52,092 nucleotides of DNA from sequence record NC_048845.1; one strand, written 5' to 3'. The notes beneath the pieces are model-generated. The model made no database searches, was not told the DNA's origin, and saw only the letters and a list, made by a program, of their open reading frames with translations. Below are positions 2,706 to 50,143 of this stretch, piece after piece (within the stretch, counting starts at the first letter, position 1; each line of letters starts with the position of its first letter). The position numbers were made by a program, and so were the translations under genes. The DNA comes from Escherichia phage flopper.

Positions 2706-3422
2706 TTACAGCTTCTTGATAAGCTCTGCGGATTTGCTTGCGGCAGCTTTCATTTCATCGCGTGCGGCTTTAGTGATTGATGCCTTGTCCACGCGAATGT
2801 TGCAGTTGCTGATTGCAATCTTGCCATCTTCTGTCGGTGCAAGCTGGGATAGTTCCAGCATTTGCTCCAGCTTTTGCAGAAGAATACGTTGTGCTTCAAT
2901 TGCATTTTGAATATTTAGAGTTTCCATAACTGCTCTTACCTTTCTTGAATAAGTTCCAGATAATGTCAGACGTACTTGCAAACCTTTTACGCCATCATAG
3001 TCAATATTGACTTTGTTGAATGGAGAATTTGGATGCTTGTACACATTTGTAACAGTTGCCCAATTGGCGTTGTACCAAATAACATCACCAACTTCCACAT
3101 CTTTTCCGAGAACATCTTCTTCATCGGATACTTTCTGCTTATTGAACTCTTCTACAGGAAGGAATACTGGAGTTACTATTGGAGTTATTTGGTTGGAAAA
3201 CTCAATTGTTGGAGTTTCCGAAGCTGGTGGCCTGTCCAACACTTTGACTATGCGCTCAAACTCAAAATTGTAATATCCACCAGAATATTGGAGTTGAACT
3301 ACAGAACTAAATCGTACAACCCTTTCAATTAAATATTCTCTGTTGCTGTATACTAGTACGTCCCCAGCTTTAACTAAATTGGCAGGTATTTCGACAAATT
3401 TATTTGCCATGATATTCCTCAC
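2706..3422 (-). CDS. hypothetical protein
   Basis: 238-aa ORF; start ambiguous (ATG at 3422 or 3410). Confidence 0.5.
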   Translation of the reverse strand: MRNIMANKFVEIPANLVKAGDVLVYSNREYLIERVVRFSSVVQLQYSGGYYNFEFERIVKVLDRPPASETPTIEFSNQITPIVTPVFLPVEEFNKQKVSDEEDVLGKDVEVGDVIWYNANWATVTNVYKHPNSPFNKVNIDYDGVKGLQVRLTLSGTYSRKVRAVMETLNIQNAIEAQRILLQKLEQMLELSQLAPTEDGKIAISNCNIRVDKASITKAARDEMKAAASKSAELIKKL

Positions 3423-4920: not shown

Positions 4921-5150
4921 TGCTTTAGTTTCTCCAAAGCGGATAATACGGAATCTCCAGAACCACTAATCACAAGCGTTTCTCCTGGAAGATTGTAGGA
5001 TATGTAAGAGAACGTCCATTTTACAATAGTTCTCTGATACGATGAGCTGTATTTATCAGACAGCTCTATATCTTGCCTTGCATCGTTTAGCAAGAACTCC
5101 TGCCCATTGATGGTCAGTTGCTTAAACATTTCGATATAATTCTTACCCAC
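4917..5150 (-). CDS. hypothetical protein
   Basis: 77-aa ORF with 4-nt overlap to its neighbour. Confidence 0.4.
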   Translation of the reverse strand: MGKNYIEMFKQLTINGQEFLLNDARQDIELSDKYSSSYQRTIVKWTFSYISYNLPGETLVISGSGDSVLSALEKLKQ

Positions 5151-5433
5151 GCTTCACCTTCTCCCATTTGGATAAACCACCTTCAAGATTGAAGATGCGA
5201 TTGCAACCAGATTCATCTTTGATGACAAACTGAGTTCCGGTTAACTGGATTGGCTCAAGTGCACCAAATATTATCTTGGGACCAGACAAGCTGGTGGCAA
5301 GAACTTCATATGCTTTGCTTGGGCAAATATCAAAAGCAAAGTCACGAGTGTAAACTAAGTCACCAACTTTCAAGTATGCTGGCAACAAGCGACCTGTGGC
5401 TGGGTCACGTTGTAGACGAGTACGCTGTTTCAT
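5143..5433 (-). CDS. hypothetical protein
   Basis: 96-aa ORF. Confidence 0.45.
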   Translation of the reverse strand: MKQRTRLQRDPATGRLLPAYLKVGDLVYTRDFAFDICPSKAYEVLATSLSGPKIIFGALEPIQLTGTQFVIKDESGCNRIFNLEGGLSKWEKVKRG

Positions 5434-42139: not shown

Positions 42140-42412
42140 TTAATCGACTTGCAACACAGCAAGACGGAAGTCATATCCAACTAATGCTTCGGTCAGCTCT
42201 TCAATTGAAGACGTTGCCGAAATTAATGTTTGGATGTTTTTGAATGTCTCATCATTAAATGCTTGAGACTGTGGGTCAGACGAAGCGAATACTTTGTCCT
42301 TAATCTTTTCAAGGAACGCCATTACAGCGTCCTTTGCAGGAACTTCGGAATCAGCAGCAAACATATGATGCTCTAATTCCTGCATATCGAAAATTGAATA
42401 TACAGTTTGCAT
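42140..42412 (-). CDS. hypothetical protein
   Basis: 90 aa; its 3' end carries a copy of the conserved motif (42175..42192). Confidence 0.4.
   Translation of the reverse strand: MQTVYSIFDMQELEHHMFAADSEVPAKDAVMAFLEKIKDKVFASSDPQSQAFNDETFKNIQTLISATSSIEELTEALVGYDFRLAVLQVD
42175..42192 (-). promoter_or_regulatory. conserved motif copy (candidate phage promoter) inside the gene end
   Basis: ATCCAACTAATGcTTCgG about 66 nt upstream of the start at 42109. Confidence 0.3.
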
Positions 42413-48509: not shown

Positions 48510-48602
48510 GTGGACGAGGTTGGATTCGAACCAACGACACATCTGTCGAACAGATTGCTCTACCTGACTAAGCTCTGGAGCAGACCTTCTGAGCTACTCG
48601 TC
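48510..48602 (-). tRNA. tRNA-like element (canonical acceptor stem and T-arm; internal arms non-canonical)
   Basis: Minus strand: GGACGAG / CTCGTCC 7-bp acceptor, U8-A9, GCUC D-stem start, T-arm GTTGG-TTCGAAT-CCAAC; ~93 nt. One fold gives a class II tRNA with anticodon loop GUCAGGU (CAG, Leu); another gives a 5-nt loop hairpin. Confidence 0.4.
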
Positions 48603-49038
48603 CAAATTGGGTGGGTTTTGATAACGCAGGTTTTCCCGAACTGCGAGGCTTGTAGAATCTGTGAGCCGCCTACTGTGTTTTGACATAACGTGGGATTGAT
48701 GGTCCCGACTCACTTCATCTCAGGTACGAGGCACTACTTTGCGAGTGCAAGCAGGTGTTGAACCCAAGTACCAACAGGCAACCTAACTTATCCCACCTTT
48801 GTGGGCATCATTGGTTTGAGCAGTTTATTTCCATGCTCAGGGCAACTCACTTTAGGGTGAATTAGGTTACGCAGTGCAGCTTCGAAGTCGCTGCCACAGG
48901 CTTGAGATTCCTGTGTGGAGGGAAATCCAGAGGAGCACTTCCTCAAGGAGTTACGTTTCAAATTGGCATAGCTTCTCACACTAAACCAATTGAAGACATT
49001 CCAGTGTGCTCGTCCGTCCTCTAGAAATATCCAACTGC

Positions 49039-49234: not shown

Positions 49235-49703
49235 TTATTGCTCCGATTTATTAATCACATCTCGAAGCCACAATGCGCCAAATTTGGTTACGTGGGATTG
49301 GAAGACCACGGAGAGGACTTAAATTTAATTAAGCCGCAACTCGCATTTCAGAATCATTTGCATTTATTTTAAATGAATAAAACAGTCGCAATAACTTCGG
49401 GCAGTTTAGGCCCGTCGTAAGACTCAGAAAACTACTTCAATTTGTACACAACAAATTTCCCAACATTGCCTTCCGTCGAAGGCTCATGCACTGGTGTTTG
49501 AATTATGCACAAATTGAAATAACTTCAATGAACACTCTCGTCTGGGCCATGAGCTTGGGCATCGGCCTTCCTCCCAACTCTAATCACAAGAATGCTCATT
49601 GAAGCCCACTCTTCCTTTCAGAGTGGGTTCAAGGCAGCACCGGAAAACTTCCAGTGCACGCCAGATCGATTTAGCTTAGTCTCTCAAGTTTGCCATCGGC
49701 AAC

Positions 49704-50042: not shown

Positions 50043-50122
50043 TTGTATATACCTTATATTGAATAGTTTTGCACGCCACGGTGACGTGACTTAGATAAAA
50101 ATTAAAGAGCCTTTCTCTTTCC

Positions 50123-50143
50123 ACATCCAACTAATGTTTCAGA
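50123..50143 (-). promoter_or_regulatory. conserved intergenic motif copy (candidate phage promoter)
   Basis: CATCCAACTAATGTTTCAGAA about 80 nt upstream of the start at 50042, preceded by an imperfect hairpin ctgattcgt-caa-acgactcag. Confidence 0.4.

What the first reader, a model, noticed from the sequence alone, without database searches (positions are those of the whole stretch)
48510..48602. tRNA-like element with perfect acceptor stem and T-arm but an irregular central region
The minus strand reads GGACGAG-UA-GCUC...GUUGG-UUCGAAU-CCAAC-CUCGUCC-A, so the acceptor stem (7/7 bp), U8 and the T-arm are canonical. The ~92-nt length fits a class II tRNA (possible anticodon CAG, Leu) but the D-arm is oversized, and the alternative fold gives a 5-nt loop. 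It may be a functional unusual tRNA, a tRNA with an insertion, or a tRNA-derived relic.
Basis: seen in the sequence. Interest (0 to 1): 0.5.

Follow-up and report, generated by a model that had tools for sequence, protein, structure and literature searches.

The report
Anticodon-less tRNA-like gene in coliphage
A phage gene that databases call an arginine or a leucine tRNA keeps a tRNA's top half intact but has a closed hairpin where the anticodon loop should be, so it is most likely a tRNA-shaped processing signal or decoy, not a working tRNA.

Summary
On the minus strand, 48603-48511 holds a perfect 7-bp acceptor stem, U8, a textbook D-arm sequence, a class I variable loop and a canonical T-arm. 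G1 lies one base outside the finder's range. The window is a phiEcoM-GJ1-type coliphage (Carltongylesvirus). This locus is already annotated in relatives as tRNA-Arg by tRNAscan-SE and is called tRNA-Leu by ARAGORN. Two features fit no tRNA template: a 20-21-nt insertion in the D region, and an "anticodon" arm that is a 5-bp hairpin with a 5-nt loop. That loop reads UUCGA, UUAGG or UAAGA in near-identical phages. A20, the main E. coli ArgRS determinant, is absent. Some relatives lack the element cleanly. In two other phage lineages the same conserved upstream block is followed by sequence-unrelated units with the same design: intact acceptor stem and T-arm, and a 4-nt loop in place of the anticodon loop. 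I conclude it is a tRNA-derived, non-decoding RNA. It is probably excised by RNase P from a long phage transcript; this step is inferred and no expression data exist. In passing I found a conserved tmRNA-style tag (ANDSEMRVAA) about 730 nt upstream and a second degenerate tRNA-like unit.

The parts
48511..48603 (-). Whole tRNA-like element (93 nt including discriminator A at 48511). Orthologue of the locus annotated tRNA-Arg in phiEcoM-GJ1, ST32, Ecp_YSF and Pel53.
48597..48603 (-). 5' acceptor strand GGACGAG. It pairs 7/7 with 48512-48518. The residue 5' of G1 is U (48604), within an A/U-rich leader.
48589..48596 (-). U8-A9, then GCUC (one candidate D-stem 5' strand) and A14-G15.
48568..48588 (-). 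The ~21-nt insertion (AAGGUCUGCUCCAGAGCUUAG). Its exact boundaries are ambiguous because GCUCAG / GCUUAG is repeated at both ends. It occurs as two haplotypes in the genus and contains a 3-bp hairpin with one compensatory change (U-A to A-U).
48557..48567 (-). Remainder of the canonical D-loop (UCAGGUA, with G18 G19 U20 A21) and the D-stem 3' strand GAGC.
48541..48555 (-). Hairpin at the anticodon-arm position: AUCUG-UUCGA-CAGAU, 5 bp with a 5-nt loop (loop 48546-48550). The loop sequence varies among close relatives.
48536..48540 (-). Class I type variable loop GUGUC.
48519..48535 (-). T-arm GUUGG-UUCGAAU-CCAAC.
48512..48518 (-). 3' acceptor strand CUCGUCC. In this window it is followed by A-CCC; several relatives encode A-CCA or G-CCA.
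48613..48713 (-). Conserved upstream block: an outer helix GUGAGUCG...CGGCUCAC with a variable interior, then GAUUCUACAAGCCU-CGCAG-loop-CUGCG-UUAUCAAAACCC. It is shared with Erwinia phage Fifi44 and with IMG/VR lineages L028 and L031-L033. It occurs once per genome and does not match the phage promoter consensus.
50120..50139 (-). Nearest upstream match to the phage-RNAP promoter consensus (AAACATTAGTTGGATGTGGA, 1 mismatch). The next match downstream is at 42189, so the element lies inside a long transcript.

Best explanation
The element is a tRNA-derived but non-decoding tRNA-like gene. It is transcribed as an internal part of the long phage-RNA-polymerase transcript that starts at the promoter near 50139. 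That transcript runs through a ~1.1-kb structured non-coding region, then this element, then the lysis cassette (a 46-aa ORF and the i- and o-spanins). The element has an intact acceptor stem stacked on a T-arm. It also has the D-arm nucleotides needed for the tRNA elbow: U8, A14, G15, G18, G19, A21 and C48. These give it the shape that host RNase P, 3'-trimming nucleases and the CCA-adding enzyme recognise. I infer that RNase P cuts between U48604 and G48603 and that the 3' end is trimmed at or just after A48511. This would release a ~93-nt tRNA-shaped RNA. The same cuts would separate the upstream non-coding RNA from the downstream lysis mRNA. It cannot read codons, because the arm at the anticodon position is a closed 5-bp hairpin with a 5-nt loop of drifting sequence. 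What is shown: the anatomy, the conservation of the helices, the recurrence of the design at the same site in two other lineages, and the lack of a nearby promoter or terminator. What is inferred: expression, the RNase P cut, and whether the released RNA has a further role, for example as a decoy.
For: (1) The top half is canonical and beyond chance. (2) Removing 21 nt restores an ARAGORN-callable tRNA, so it is tRNA-derived. (3) The anticodon-position loop has 5 nt and reads UUCGA, UUAGG (Bp7) or UAAGA (PYps16N) in phages that are otherwise nearly identical across the element, while the stem never changes. (4) Across 10 distinct genus variants, 100% of cells in all helices stay paired. All 13 variable columns and a 6-nt deletion fall in unpaired positions or preserve pairing. 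(5) After the same conserved block, Fifi44 carries GGUGGCA-GAGAC-UGGU-GUCUC-GGG-UUCGAUU-CCC-AA-UGCCGCC. L028 carries a clean cloverleaf whose anticodon-position arm ends in a GCAA tetraloop. These are unrelated in sequence but share the design, with shuffle z-scores of -3.1 and -4.2. TH23's extra unit immediately 3' of the element also has a 4-nt loop there. (6) Rfam aligns further tRNA-like units in L031 and L033 full-length but with shortened anticodon arms. (7) Homologous units keep acceptor pairing through compensatory changes: GGAUUCG/CGAAUCC against GGAGUCG/CGACUCC, and GCGGGAG/CUCCCGC against CGCGGAU/GUCCGCG. (8) There is no phage promoter between 50139 and 42189, and no sigma-70-like promoter or intrinsic terminator on the transcribed strand near the element. 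(9) All three site-1 units have U at -1 in an A/U-rich leader. From general knowledge, this is the preferred RNase P context. (10) U20 replaces A20, the main E. coli ArgRS determinant (PMC9976931), whereas the canonical tRNA-Arg(CCU) of sister phage Myduc has A20.
Against: There are no expression, end-mapping or RNase P data for any of these phages. The element is dispensable: PYps3T/4T/16T, BSBP01 and 2KOFFS lack it (PMC8762354), so any processing role is not essential. In L031-L033 the unit after the block ends in CCA but is not clearly tRNA-like (L033 z = -0.95; no closing helix was found for L031 and L032), so the design is seen in 3 of 5 lineages, not all. Genus-level divergence is only about 4% within the element (mean column identity 96%), so the absence of helix-breaking changes has modest power. 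My rough estimate is p of about 0.01-0.05. The purpose of the 21-nt insertion is unexplained. tRNAscan-SE calls the locus tRNA-Arg in several published genomes. CGA makes up 14% of Arg codons in the window's long ORFs, higher than I recall for E. coli, so a CGA decoder would have some rationale.
Confidence: 0.45

Rival explanations
1. It is a working class I tRNA-Arg(UCG) that tolerates a ~21-nt insertion in the D region. It would read CGA/CGG through a 7-nt loop G-U-UCG-A-C closed by a 4-bp stem.
For: tRNAscan-SE calls tRNA-Arg in phiEcoM-GJ1 ('codon CGA; may contain an intron'), ST32, Ecp_YSF, Pel53 and Tiny. The loop has U33 and A37 in that register. All tertiary-interaction nucleotides are present if the insertion sits after G15. 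CGA is 14% of Arg codons. Several relatives encode CCA.
Against: In that register G32 and C38 form a Watson-Crick pair, which closes the loop to 5 nt. The stem is then only 4 bp, or position 26 is missing. The 'anticodon' becomes UAG in Bp7 and AAG in PYps16N, which removes the C35 determinant. A20 is absent. Rfam scores it below gathering, and only locally. ARAGORN makes no call. Natural deletions are viable.
Confidence: 0.12
2. It is a class II tRNA-Leu(CAG). The GCUC-AGUCAGGUA-GAGC hairpin would be the anticodon arm, and AUCUG-UUCGA-CAGAU would be a long variable arm whose loop is free to vary.
For: ARAGORN at default settings calls tRNA-Leu(CAG), 95-97 nt, in GJ1, ST32, SKA49, Bp10 and L024. 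The length fits class II. The reading explains the variable 5-nt loop. The loop GUCAGGU resembles the E. coli tRNA-Leu(CAG) loop (from memory).
Against: The D-arm in this reading has one Watson-Crick pair and one G.U pair, and the anticodon stem closes with an A.A mismatch. The supposed anticodon arm is a textbook D-arm sequence that Rfam aligns as the D-arm. Five nucleotides (GUGUC) are left between the variable arm and the T-stem. Haplotype A, the window's own, is not called. SA91KD deletes 6 nt of that 'anticodon loop'. The discriminator varies between A and G, whereas A73 is required by LeuRS (from memory). CUG is only 24% of Leu codons and is served by an abundant host tRNA.
Confidence: 0.04
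3. It is a neutral, decaying tRNA pseudogene left from an ancestral phage tRNA cluster, with no present function.
For: Neither tRNA template is met. The element is absent from several close relatives. SA91KD has an internal 6-nt deletion. The region holds other degenerate units, for example 47684-47618, where L028 has a canonical tRNA-Cys at the corresponding place. Conservation within the genus is not clearly above background.
Against: Neutral decay should hit the acceptor, D and T stems as often as the anticodon loop. Instead no helix-breaking change is seen. At least four independent units (window, Fifi44, L028, TH23 second unit) show the same specific defect, a 4-5-nt loop, with intact top halves. 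Acceptor stems of homologous units change by compensatory substitutions.
Confidence: 0.2
4. The released tRNA-shaped RNA is the point. It would act as a decoy that titrates a host tRNA-binding factor, such as SmpB of the tmRNA system, a tRNA-targeting defence nuclease, or a tRNA-modifying or tRNA-sensing protein.
For: There is a precedent. Mycobacteriophage DS6A carries little more than a tmRNA tRNA-like domain, and a similar molecule strongly inhibits tmRNA, perhaps by titrating SmpB (PMC4131195). The design, with the top half kept and the anticodon loop abolished, is what a non-toxic tRNA mimic would need. Cassette-like gain, loss and replacement among close relatives is typical of counter-defence genes. 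A tmRNA-style tag RNA lies in the same non-coding region.
Against: No target is identified. Acceptor stems and discriminators differ between lineages (A, C, G). None has G3.U70. The element has a true D-stem, unlike a tmRNA TLD. A short closed loop would not attract an anticodon nuclease.
Confidence: 0.14
5. It is the tRNA-like partner of the nearby tmRNA-style tag RNA, together forming an unorthodox split trans-translation RNA.
For: A conserved tag frame with pseudoknots lies upstream on the same strand. No tRNA-like domain of the usual kind can be found next to the tag. In Fifi44 and L033 a long tRNA-like unit follows the tag within ~270-400 nt. Exact upstream copies of the 5' acceptor strand exist (window 49015; L033 X block).
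Against: There is no G3.U70 (A3-U70). PYps3T keeps the tag region but lacks the element. In L028 about 600 nt of coding sequence separates the tag RNA from the block. The upstream GGACGAG lies in a segment absent from Pel53 and SA91KD and does not co-vary. Both acceptor strands are local, so the tag is not inserted in the tRNA-like domain as it is in tmRNA.
Confidence: 0.05

Closest known systems
The annotated 'tRNA-Arg' of Escherichia phage phiEcoM-GJ1 (EF460875.1, 14456-14550) and its orthologues in ST32, Ecp_YSF, Pel53, Tiny, PYps16N and PYps23T
   Same: It is the same locus: 89-96% identical over a 161-nt query, with the same flanks and orientation.
   Different: The window carries haplotype A of the insertion, which ARAGORN does not call. 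GJ1 carries haplotype B, which ARAGORN calls Leu(CAG). The published identity (Arg, Leu or none) depends on the software used, and no paper reports expression or charging.
Canonical class I bacterial or phage tRNA (Rfam RF00005)
   Same: It has a 7-bp acceptor stem, U8, a D-arm sequence with A14, G18, G19 and A21, a 5-nt variable loop, a T-arm with a UUCGAAU loop and a discriminator.
   Different: It has 20-21 extra nucleotides in the D region and a 5-nt instead of a 7-nt anticodon loop. It scores 27.9 bits against a gathering score of 29, by local alignment only.
[quoted passage not shown]
   Same: Both are tRNA-shaped RNAs that do not decode, embedded at the 3' end of a conserved structured non-coding transcript. 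In mascRNA, excision creates the mature end of that transcript. (Description from the bioRxiv abstract 10.64898/2026.01.19.700226 listed, and from general knowledge.)
   Different: mascRNA is eukaryotic, 58 nt and unrelated in sequence. For the phage element, RNase P cleavage is inferred, not shown. This is a functional analogy only.
tmRNA tRNA-like domain, and the TLD-only gene of mycobacteriophage DS6A
   Same: Both are anticodon-less tRNA mimics with an acceptor stem and a T-arm. The DS6A case shows that phages can carry such a mimic (PMC4131195).
   Different: The element has no G3.U70, has a true D-stem, and has a closed hairpin instead of helix P2 leading to pseudoknots. It is not found by ARAGORN's tmRNA mode or by the Rfam tmRNA models.
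Class II tRNA-Leu(CAG)
   Same: Both have a length of ~92-95 nt and a stem-loop between the anticodon-like arm and the T-arm. ARAGORN calls haplotype B this way.
   Different: The D-arm in this reading is nearly unpaired. The 'anticodon arm' is a D-arm by sequence. The discriminator is not fixed as A.
Archaeal tRNA genes with introns at non-canonical positions (D-loop and others), removed at bulge-helix-bulge motifs (from memory)
   Same: Both have a short extra segment interrupting the D region of an otherwise good tRNA.
   Different: The host is a bacterium with no splicing endonuclease, and I did not identify a bulge-helix-bulge motif. Removing the insertion would still leave a 5-nt anticodon loop.

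Membership tests
tRNA (decoding, class I; Rfam RF00005) | 7-bp acceptor stem with a discriminator base | tested here: met
   GGACGAG/CUCGUCC is 7/7 paired with discriminator A. It is paired in all 10 genus variants.
tRNA (decoding, class I; Rfam RF00005) | T-arm: 5-bp stem and a 7-nt loop of U54 U55 C56 R57 A58 type | tested here: met
   GUUGG-UUCGAAU-CCAAC.
tRNA (decoding, class I; Rfam RF00005) | D-arm two nucleotides after the acceptor stem, with a 3-4-bp stem and a loop of about 7-11 nt holding A14, G18, G19 and A21 | tested here: not met
   The nucleotides are all present, but 20-21 extra nt intervene. This gives either a 30-nt loop or a 23-nt spacer between U8 and the D-stem.
tRNA (decoding, class I; Rfam RF00005) | Anticodon arm: 5-bp stem and a 7-nt loop with U33 and a purine at 37 | tested here: not met
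   The arm is a 5-bp stem with a 5-nt loop (UUCGA). A 7-nt loop needs a 4-bp stem and an unpaired G32 and C38.
tRNA (decoding, class I; Rfam RF00005) | Anticodon conserved among orthologues | tested here: not met
   It reads UCG in most genomes, UAG in Bp7 and AAG in PYps16N.
tRNA (decoding, class I; Rfam RF00005) | Covariance-model score at or above the curated threshold; detection by standard finders | tested here: not met
   27.9 bits against a gathering score of 29, local match to model positions 9-63. ARAGORN default finds none. tRNAscan-SE could not be run here.
tRNA-Arg for E. coli ArgRS | A20 in the D-loop (main determinant), C35, U/G36 and A/G73 (PMC9976931) | tested here: not met
   Position 20 is U (…G18 G19 U20 A21). 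C35 is present in most variants but lost in Bp7 and PYps16N. Position 73 is A or G.
Class II tRNA-Leu | Paired D-stem, 5-bp anticodon stem with a 7-nt loop, long variable arm, A73 | tested here: not met
   The D-stem has 1 Watson-Crick and 1 G.U pair. There is an A.A mismatch in the anticodon stem. The discriminator is A or G. Haplotype A is not called.
tmRNA tRNA-like domain | G3.U70 in the acceptor stem (alanine identity); no D-stem; anticodon arm replaced by helix P2 leading to pseudoknots and a tag frame | tested here: not met
   The pair is A3-U70. A true D-stem is present. The hairpin is closed. ARAGORN and Rfam tmRNA models make no call on the element.
RNase P-released non-decoding tRNA-like RNAs (mascRNA type; functional class, not a sequence family) | Acceptor stem stacked on a T-arm, a reduced anticodon loop, and a position inside or at the 3' end of a longer transcript | tested here: met
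   Anatomy. No promoter or terminator nearby and a conserved structured RNA upstream.
RNase P-released non-decoding tRNA-like RNAs (mascRNA type; functional class, not a sequence family) | Actual cleavage by RNase P and accumulation of the small RNA | not testable with these tools
   No transcriptome or biochemical data are available for these phages. None was found in the papers read.

The most novel reading that the evidence does not exclude
Cleopatravirinae phages (phiEcoM-GJ1-like, Erwinia Fifi44-like and related uncultured lineages) carry a dedicated non-coding RNA toolkit with two components. The first is arrays of tRNA-shaped RNAs whose anticodon loops have been deliberately closed. The second is an orphan tmRNA-type tag RNA (ANDSEMRVAA, with pseudoknots) that has no recognisable alanine tRNA-like domain. 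Together they would manipulate or replace host ribosome rescue, with the finder's element acting as an SmpB or trans-translation decoy, or as an unorthodox tRNA-like partner of the tag RNA.
Probability: 0.1. Interest if true: 0.85.

Novelty: new variant of a known kind. Interest (0 to 1): 0.55.

Why it matters
In practical terms, this locus is annotated inconsistently across about 40 public phage genomes: as tRNA-Arg, as tRNA-Leu, as a 'hypothetical protein' on the wrong strand, or not at all. The analysis explains why, and argues that it should not be counted as a decoding tRNA in codon-usage or host-range studies. Biologically, if tRNA-shaped RNAs with closed anticodon arms recur at a fixed site in several lineages of virulent phages that have a T7-like RNA polymerase, then these phages use the host's tRNA-processing machinery for something other than translation. 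That could be transcript punctuation or molecular mimicry. This is directly testable, because natural deletion variants exist (PYps3T against PYps16N). The neighbouring tmRNA-style tag RNA was absent from the 2014 census of phage ssrA genes (PMC4131195). It may be the more important lead.

Tried and rejected
1. Class II tRNA-Leu(CAG). This is ARAGORN's call on haplotype B. I rejected it because the D-arm is almost unpaired and the 'anticodon arm' is a D-arm by sequence.

2. Orthology with the tRNA-Arg(CCU) of Proteus phage Myduc. That tRNA is canonical, unrelated in sequence and at a different position.

3. The conserved upstream block as a phage promoter. It occurs once per genome and does not resemble the phage promoter consensus ACATTAGTTGGATGTGAA. 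The nearest consensus copy is at 50139.

4. The second GGACGAG at 49015 as a long-range tmRNA-type 5' acceptor strand. This was ARAGORN's relaxed call, with tag AQTNDAHKGGIS. That 'tag' has frame-breaking indels between genomes. The segment is absent from Pel53 and SA91KD, and there is no covariation.

5. ARAGORN's relaxed 'permuted tmRNA' tRNA domains for the ANDSEMRVAA tag. They are not homologous between the window and Fifi44, and in Fifi44 they lie inside a protein-coding gene.

6. ATCTGTT in the hairpin as a T7-type class II pause signal. A 7-mer is expected about 6 times per window by chance, and it is broken in PYps16N.

7. Looking for a partner sequence that co-varies with the two insertion haplotypes. 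No column upstream tracks the A/B split.

8. Metagenome and IMG/VR pattern scans for more variants of the element itself. They returned only genus members.

9. The downstream spanin gene as an anchor for distant orthologues. It is restricted to the genus.

10. Reading the original phiEcoM-GJ1 paper (PMC2223254). It is not held in the library.
Full report
**Observation.** The minus strand of the window reads GGACGAG-UA-GCUC-AG-[AAGGUCUGCUCCAGAGCUUAG]-UCAGGUA-GAGC-A-AUCUG-UUCGA-CAGAU-GUGUC-GUUGG-UUCGAAU-CCAAC-CUCGUCC-A. The finder described the acceptor stem (7/7), U8, the T-arm, the oversized D region and the 5-nt loop correctly. The only correction is that G1 lies at 48603, one base beyond the stated end. 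The element with its discriminator is 48603-48511. I scanned both strands for a 7-bp acceptor stem directly abutting a 5-bp stem with a UUCRA-type loop. The scan finds two such modules in the window, both on the transcribed strand. Block-shuffled controls (200) give a mean of 0.09 and two or more modules in 0.5% of shuffles. The feature is real and not a chance match.

**What standard tools say.** ARAGORN at default settings finds no tRNA or tmRNA in the window. Rfam finds nothing at gathering thresholds. With permissive settings the Rfam tRNA model matches 48574-48519 at 27.9 bits, against a gathering score of 29. The match covers model positions 9-63 only: the D-arm AGCUUAGUCAGGUAGAGC, a shortened anticodon arm, the variable loop and the T-arm. 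It skips the 5' acceptor strand and about 21 nt. ARAGORN at relaxed thresholds gives mutually inconsistent calls: Thr with an intron, or a four-base anticodon. The whole-sequence fold is not unusually stable (z = -1.35).

**Genomic context.** The window is an Escherichia phage of the phiEcoM-GJ1 group (Chaseviridae, Cleopatravirinae, Carltongylesvirus), 90-95% identical to Bp7, PO103-1, SKA49 and MLP1. All genes are on the minus strand. Downstream of the element lie a 46-aa acidic ORF and the i- and o-spanin genes. Upstream lies about 1.1 kb without credible ORFs.

The phage-polymerase promoter consensus comes from the nine promoters annotated in phiEcoM-GJ1. It matches the minus strand at 50139, and the next match downstream is at 42189. 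No sigma-70-like promoter or intrinsic terminator lies on the transcribed strand near the element. The element is therefore internal to a long transcript and would have to be cut out of it.

**Status in the literature.** This locus is already known as a gene.
- The phiEcoM-GJ1 record annotates a 95-nt 'tRNA-Arg, codon recognized CGA; may contain an intron'.
- ST32 is described with a 95-bp tRNA-Arg 'without an intron' (PMC6266442).
- Ecp_YSF and Pel53 carry 71-nt tRNAscan-SE calls that begin inside the insertion.
- Phage Tiny has a tRNA-Arg (PMC13340011).
- The Yersinia phage paper speaks of 'tRNA for arginine or leucine' (PMC8762354).
- The Mangalitsa authors, using ARAGORN, reported no tRNAs (PMC6753284).
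- Other records annotate nothing there, or a hypothetical protein on either strand.

I reproduced the disagreement. ARAGORN at default settings calls the haplotype-B orthologues (GJ1, ST32, SKA49, Bp10, L024) a class II tRNA-Leu(CAG). It calls SA91KD a tRNA-Ser(GCU). It calls nothing in haplotype A, which includes the window. The published identity therefore depends on the software. No paper I could read reports expression or charging.

**Anatomy and the competing folds.** Deleting 21 nt in silico, either after G15 or after U8, yields a sequence that ARAGORN calls tRNA-Arg(TCG) at default settings. The element is therefore tRNA-derived.

Suppose the insertion sits in the D-loop after G15. Then every nucleotide used for tRNA tertiary structure is in place: U8-A14, G15-C48, G18 G19 facing the T-loop, A21, C13-G22 with G46, and U12-A23 with A9. 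I base this on direct reading and standard tRNA knowledge. Suppose instead it sits between U8 and A9. Then the second GCUU/GAGC (GCUC/GAGC in haplotype B) forms the D-stem. The energies of the two placements are similar: -26.3 against -25.2 kcal/mol in haplotype A, and -23.7 against -22.6 to -23.1 in haplotype B.

The class II reading needs a D-stem with one Watson-Crick and one G.U pair. It also needs an A.A mismatch closing the anticodon stem. It uses as 'anticodon arm' a sequence that is a textbook D-arm, and it leaves GUGUC stranded before the T-stem. I reject it.

In every reading the arm AUCUG-UUCGA-CAGAU is a 5-bp hairpin with a 5-nt loop. A 7-nt loop requires leaving G32 and C38 unpaired and accepting a 4-bp stem.

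**Variation within the genus.** I aligned 10 distinct variants. Seventy-one columns are invariant. The variable columns are:
- the insertion: two haplotypes, GGUCUGCUCCAGAGCUUAG and GGUUUGCAUU-GUGCUCAG;
- three columns in the 5-nt loop: UUCGA in most genomes, UUAGG in Bp7, UAAGA in PYps16N;
- one T-loop position (U/C);
- one acceptor position (G-C to G.U);
- the discriminator (A/G).

SA91KD also has a 6-nt deletion in the D-loop region. All helix cells stay paired (100%) under both placements of the insertion. One pair in the insertion hairpin changes on both sides, U-A to A-U. Divergence is only about 4%, so the power is modest. My rough estimate is that the absence of any helix-breaking change has a probability of about 0.01-0.05 under random placement.

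The loop carries the highest density of change in the element. Read as an anticodon, it would switch between Arg (UCG) and Leu (UAG, AAG) among near-identical phages. That is not how a working tRNA evolves. E. coli ArgRS depends mainly on A20, plus C35, U/G36 and A/G73 (PMC9976931). The element has U20, whereas the canonical tRNA-Arg(CCU) of sister phage Myduc has A20.

**Gain, loss and replacement.** PYps3T, 4T and 16T lack the element with both flanks intact, as their authors noted. BSBP01 and 2KOFFS match only the upstream flank. TH23 carries a second tRNA-like unit immediately 3' of the first, and probably TH28 and TH33 do too, because their matches break off at the same point. The TH23 unit folds as a cloverleaf whose anticodon-position arm is 6 bp with a 4-nt loop.

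**The same site in other lineages.** About 100 nt upstream of the element form a conserved block. It consists of an outer helix GUGAGUCG...CGRCUCAC whose interior exists in three unrelated versions, followed by GAUUCUACAAGCCU-CGCAG-loop-CUGCG-UUAYCAAAACC. The block is also present in Erwinia phage Fifi44 (genus Loessnervirus) and in IMG/VR lineages L028 and L031-L033.
- In Fifi44 it is followed by GGUGGCA-GAGAC-UGGU-GUCUC-GGG-UUCGAUU-CCC-AA-UGCCGCC. This is an acceptor stem, one tetraloop hairpin and a T-arm (z = -3.1).
- In L028 it is followed by GUCUGUG...CUGGG-UUCAAGU-CCCGG-CACAGAC-G-CCA. This is a clean cloverleaf whose anticodon-position arm ends in a GCAA tetraloop (z = -4.2).

These units share no sequence with the window's element. 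They share its design: a perfect acceptor stem, a T-arm, U at -1 in an A/U-rich leader, and a 4-5-nt loop where the anticodon loop should be.

In L031-L033 the unit after the block ends in CCA but is not clearly tRNA-like. The design therefore holds in three of five lineages. Those loci also show tandem arrays of units. Each unit ends in N73-CCA and is separated from the next G1 by the spacer AACAAU. Rfam aligns two more units full-length to the tRNA model with shortened anticodon arms: L033 5247-5315 at 37.8 bits and L031 1288-1356 at 35.2 bits.

Related units keep their acceptor stems through compensatory changes. GGAUUCG/CGAAUCC in GJ1, Bp7 and L024 corresponds to GGAGUCG/CGACUCC in L031-L033. 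CGCGGAU/GUCCGCG in Fifi44 corresponds to GCGGGAG/CUCCCGC in its apparent L033 counterpart.

Neutral decay would not repeatedly abolish only the anticodon loop while preserving, and compensating, the top half.

**Interpretation.** The best-supported reading is a tRNA-derived RNA selected for the tRNA top half but not for decoding. The acceptor stem and T-arm minihelix is what RNase P, the 3' exonucleases and the CCA-adding enzyme recognise (standard knowledge). The element lies inside a long transcript, between a conserved structured non-coding region and the lysis cassette. I therefore propose that it is excised by RNase P and 3' trimming. Excision would both release a stable tRNA-shaped RNA and cut the transcript at that point. 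The closest functional analogue is mascRNA at the 3' end of MALAT1.

Expression, cleavage and any further role of the released RNA are inferred, not shown. A decoy role is a serious alternative. Mycobacteriophage DS6A carries little more than a tmRNA tRNA-like domain, and such a molecule inhibits tmRNA, perhaps by titrating SmpB (PMC4131195). The main counter-evidence is that the element is dispensable in nature. There are also no expression data, and tRNAscan-SE does call it tRNA-Arg. CGA is a fairly frequent Arg codon in this phage, at 14%.

**Side finding 1: a tmRNA-style tag RNA.** The permissive Rfam scan gave sub-threshold hits to permuted-tmRNA models at 49274-49523 on the minus strand (17.8 and 20.3 bits). 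The aligned core is an A/U-rich leader followed by GCA AAU GAU UCU GAA AUG CGA GUU GCG GCU UAA (49361-49329), which encodes ANDSEMRVAA*. Similar sub-threshold hits recur in L028 and L033.

Across five lineages the frame is conserved at the peptide level:
- Fifi44, L029 and Pel53 differ only synonymously, and codon 9 occurs as GCG, GCA and GCC.
- L022 and L028 have M to I.
- L033 reads ANDNEMRAAA.

In GJ1 and Pel53 an in-frame UAA lies six codons upstream of the GCA, with no start codon between them. The overlapping AUG frame takes three non-synonymous changes in Fifi44.

Downstream there is a hairpin holding the stop codon, then a pseudoknot, then a further helix. Their stems co-vary. CGUGG/CCACG becomes CGAGG/CCUUG. 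CCAA/UUGG becomes CCGA/UCGG and then UCGA/UCGA. A helix around the invariant GUGAUUAAUAA has four unrelated complementary versions.

ARAGORN calls a permuted tmRNA with this tag only at an 80% threshold, and its proposed tRNA domains are not homologous between phages. I could not find a tRNA-like domain with G3.U70. None of the tRNA-like units has that pair. PYps3T keeps the tag region without the finder's element. In L028, coding sequence separates the two. They are therefore separate genes.

The 2014 census of ssrA found phage copies only in mycobacteriophages and Bacillus phage G. My literature searches found no report for Chaseviridae.

**Side finding 2: a second module.** At 47684-47618 (minus strand) lies GGGAUUU...ACUGG-UUCGAUU-CCAGU-GAAUCCC, which has an irregular centre. 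At the same place GJ1, Bp7 and L024 carry a different ~97-nt unit that ends in an encoded CCA. L028 carries a canonical tRNA-Cys(GCA) (46 bits) with the identical T-arm. The two ORF-poor stretches around the lysis cassette thus look like a mosaic, rapidly exchanging array of tRNA-derived units.

**Verdict.** The finding is confirmed as a feature and is already annotated in relatives. Its published identity as a decoding tRNA is doubtful. The most likely nature is a non-decoding tRNA-like RNA, which would be a new variant of a known kind. Interest is moderate for the element itself. It is raised by the recurrence of the closed-anticodon design across lineages and by the neighbouring tag RNA.

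Noticed in passing
window 49361-49329 (minus strand; tag frame), within a structured region of about 49700-49240: A tmRNA-style tag RNA. An A/U-rich leader precedes GCA AAU GAU UCU GAA AUG CGA GUU GCG GCU UAA (ANDSEMRVAA*). The frame is conserved at the peptide level in five phage lineages, mostly through synonymous changes. GJ1 has no start codon for it. A stop-codon hairpin and co-varying pseudoknot stems follow. Rfam hits to tmRNA models are sub-threshold only, and no tRNA-like domain with G3.U70 was found. It is not in the 2014 census of phage ssrA genes.
   Followed up: partly
window 47684-47617 (minus strand): A second tRNA-like module: GGGAUUU...ACUGG-UUCGAUU-CCAGU-GAAUCCC-C, with an irregular centre. 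At the same site GJ1, Bp7 and L024 have a different ~97-nt CCA-ending unit. L028 has a canonical tRNA-Cys(GCA) with the identical T-arm.
   Followed up: partly
window 48784-48693 and 48808-48790 (minus strand): A ~92-nt stretch (AGGUUGCCUG...CCAUCAAUCC) is essentially invariant in all genus members, although the genomes differ by 5-10% elsewhere. Just upstream, a hairpin co-varies: CCCAC-AAAG-GUGGG, UCUAC-AAAG-GUAGA and UCCAC-AACG-GUGGA. Its function is unknown.
   Followed up: no
window ~49240-49035 (minus strand): Long inverted and direct repeats (AUAAUUAAUUUGUAUUCUG / CAGAGUACAAACUUAAUUAU) form two tandem long-stem hairpins. The window and Bp7 have about 96 nt here (around 49154-49059) that are absent from most relatives.
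   Followed up: no
window ~49580-49533 (minus strand); L025 ~3180-3230; L033 ~3165-3200: A block, GGGAGG(A/U)(A/U)GGCCGAUGCCC...CAUGGCCCAG, lies upstream of the tag in the window, L019, L022 and L024. It is absent from Bp7 and GJ1. In Fifi44 and L033 it lies downstream of the tag. This looks like a modular or permuted arrangement of RNA domains.
   Followed up: no
window 49015-49009 (minus strand); L033 ~3167: Exact upstream copies of the 5' acceptor strand of a downstream tRNA-like unit: GGACGAG in the window, followed by CACACUGGAAUG, and GCGGGAG in L033. The window copy lies in a segment missing from Pel53 and SA91KD and shows no covariation. It is probably chance, but it occurs in two lineages.
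   Followed up: partly
L015 (TH23) 739-808; probably also TH28 and TH33: An extra 70-nt tRNA-like gene immediately 3' of the finder's element. It has a good acceptor stem, D-arm and T-arm, and a 6-bp arm with a 4-nt loop (GACG) at the anticodon position. ARAGORN calls it 'tRNA-?(ac)'.
   Followed up: partly
L031 and L033, the ~330 nt after the conserved block; L025 ~5090-5170: Tandem arrays of units, each ending in N73-CCA and separated by the spacer AACAAU. Several have non-standard anticodon regions, such as the 8-nt loop GUUGCAAA or shortened arms. Fifi44 has a tRNA-Leu-like unit with a truncated anticodon arm and an encoded CCA.
   Followed up: partly
window 48481-48341 (minus strand): A conserved 46-aa, very acidic ORF (MDIDALDNLDFGAAEEAIEELKKKQDEEAIVPGAGDNDCSSGACAI) lies between the element and the spanin genes. 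It has no PHROG match. Its ribosome-binding site, GGAGUCC, resembles the 5' acceptor strand GGAGUCG of units in L031-L033.
   Followed up: no
L004 (PP952070.1): The record named 'Staphylococcus phage Pel53' (host Staphylococcus hyicus) is a Chaseviridae genome about 93% identical to these coliphages at this locus. The host label looks questionable.
   Followed up: no
window 48554-48548 (minus strand): The hairpin's 5' strand and loop spell AUCUGUU, the T7 RNA polymerase class II pause/termination motif (from memory). A 7-mer is expected about 6 times per window by chance, and the motif is broken in PYps16N.
   Followed up: no
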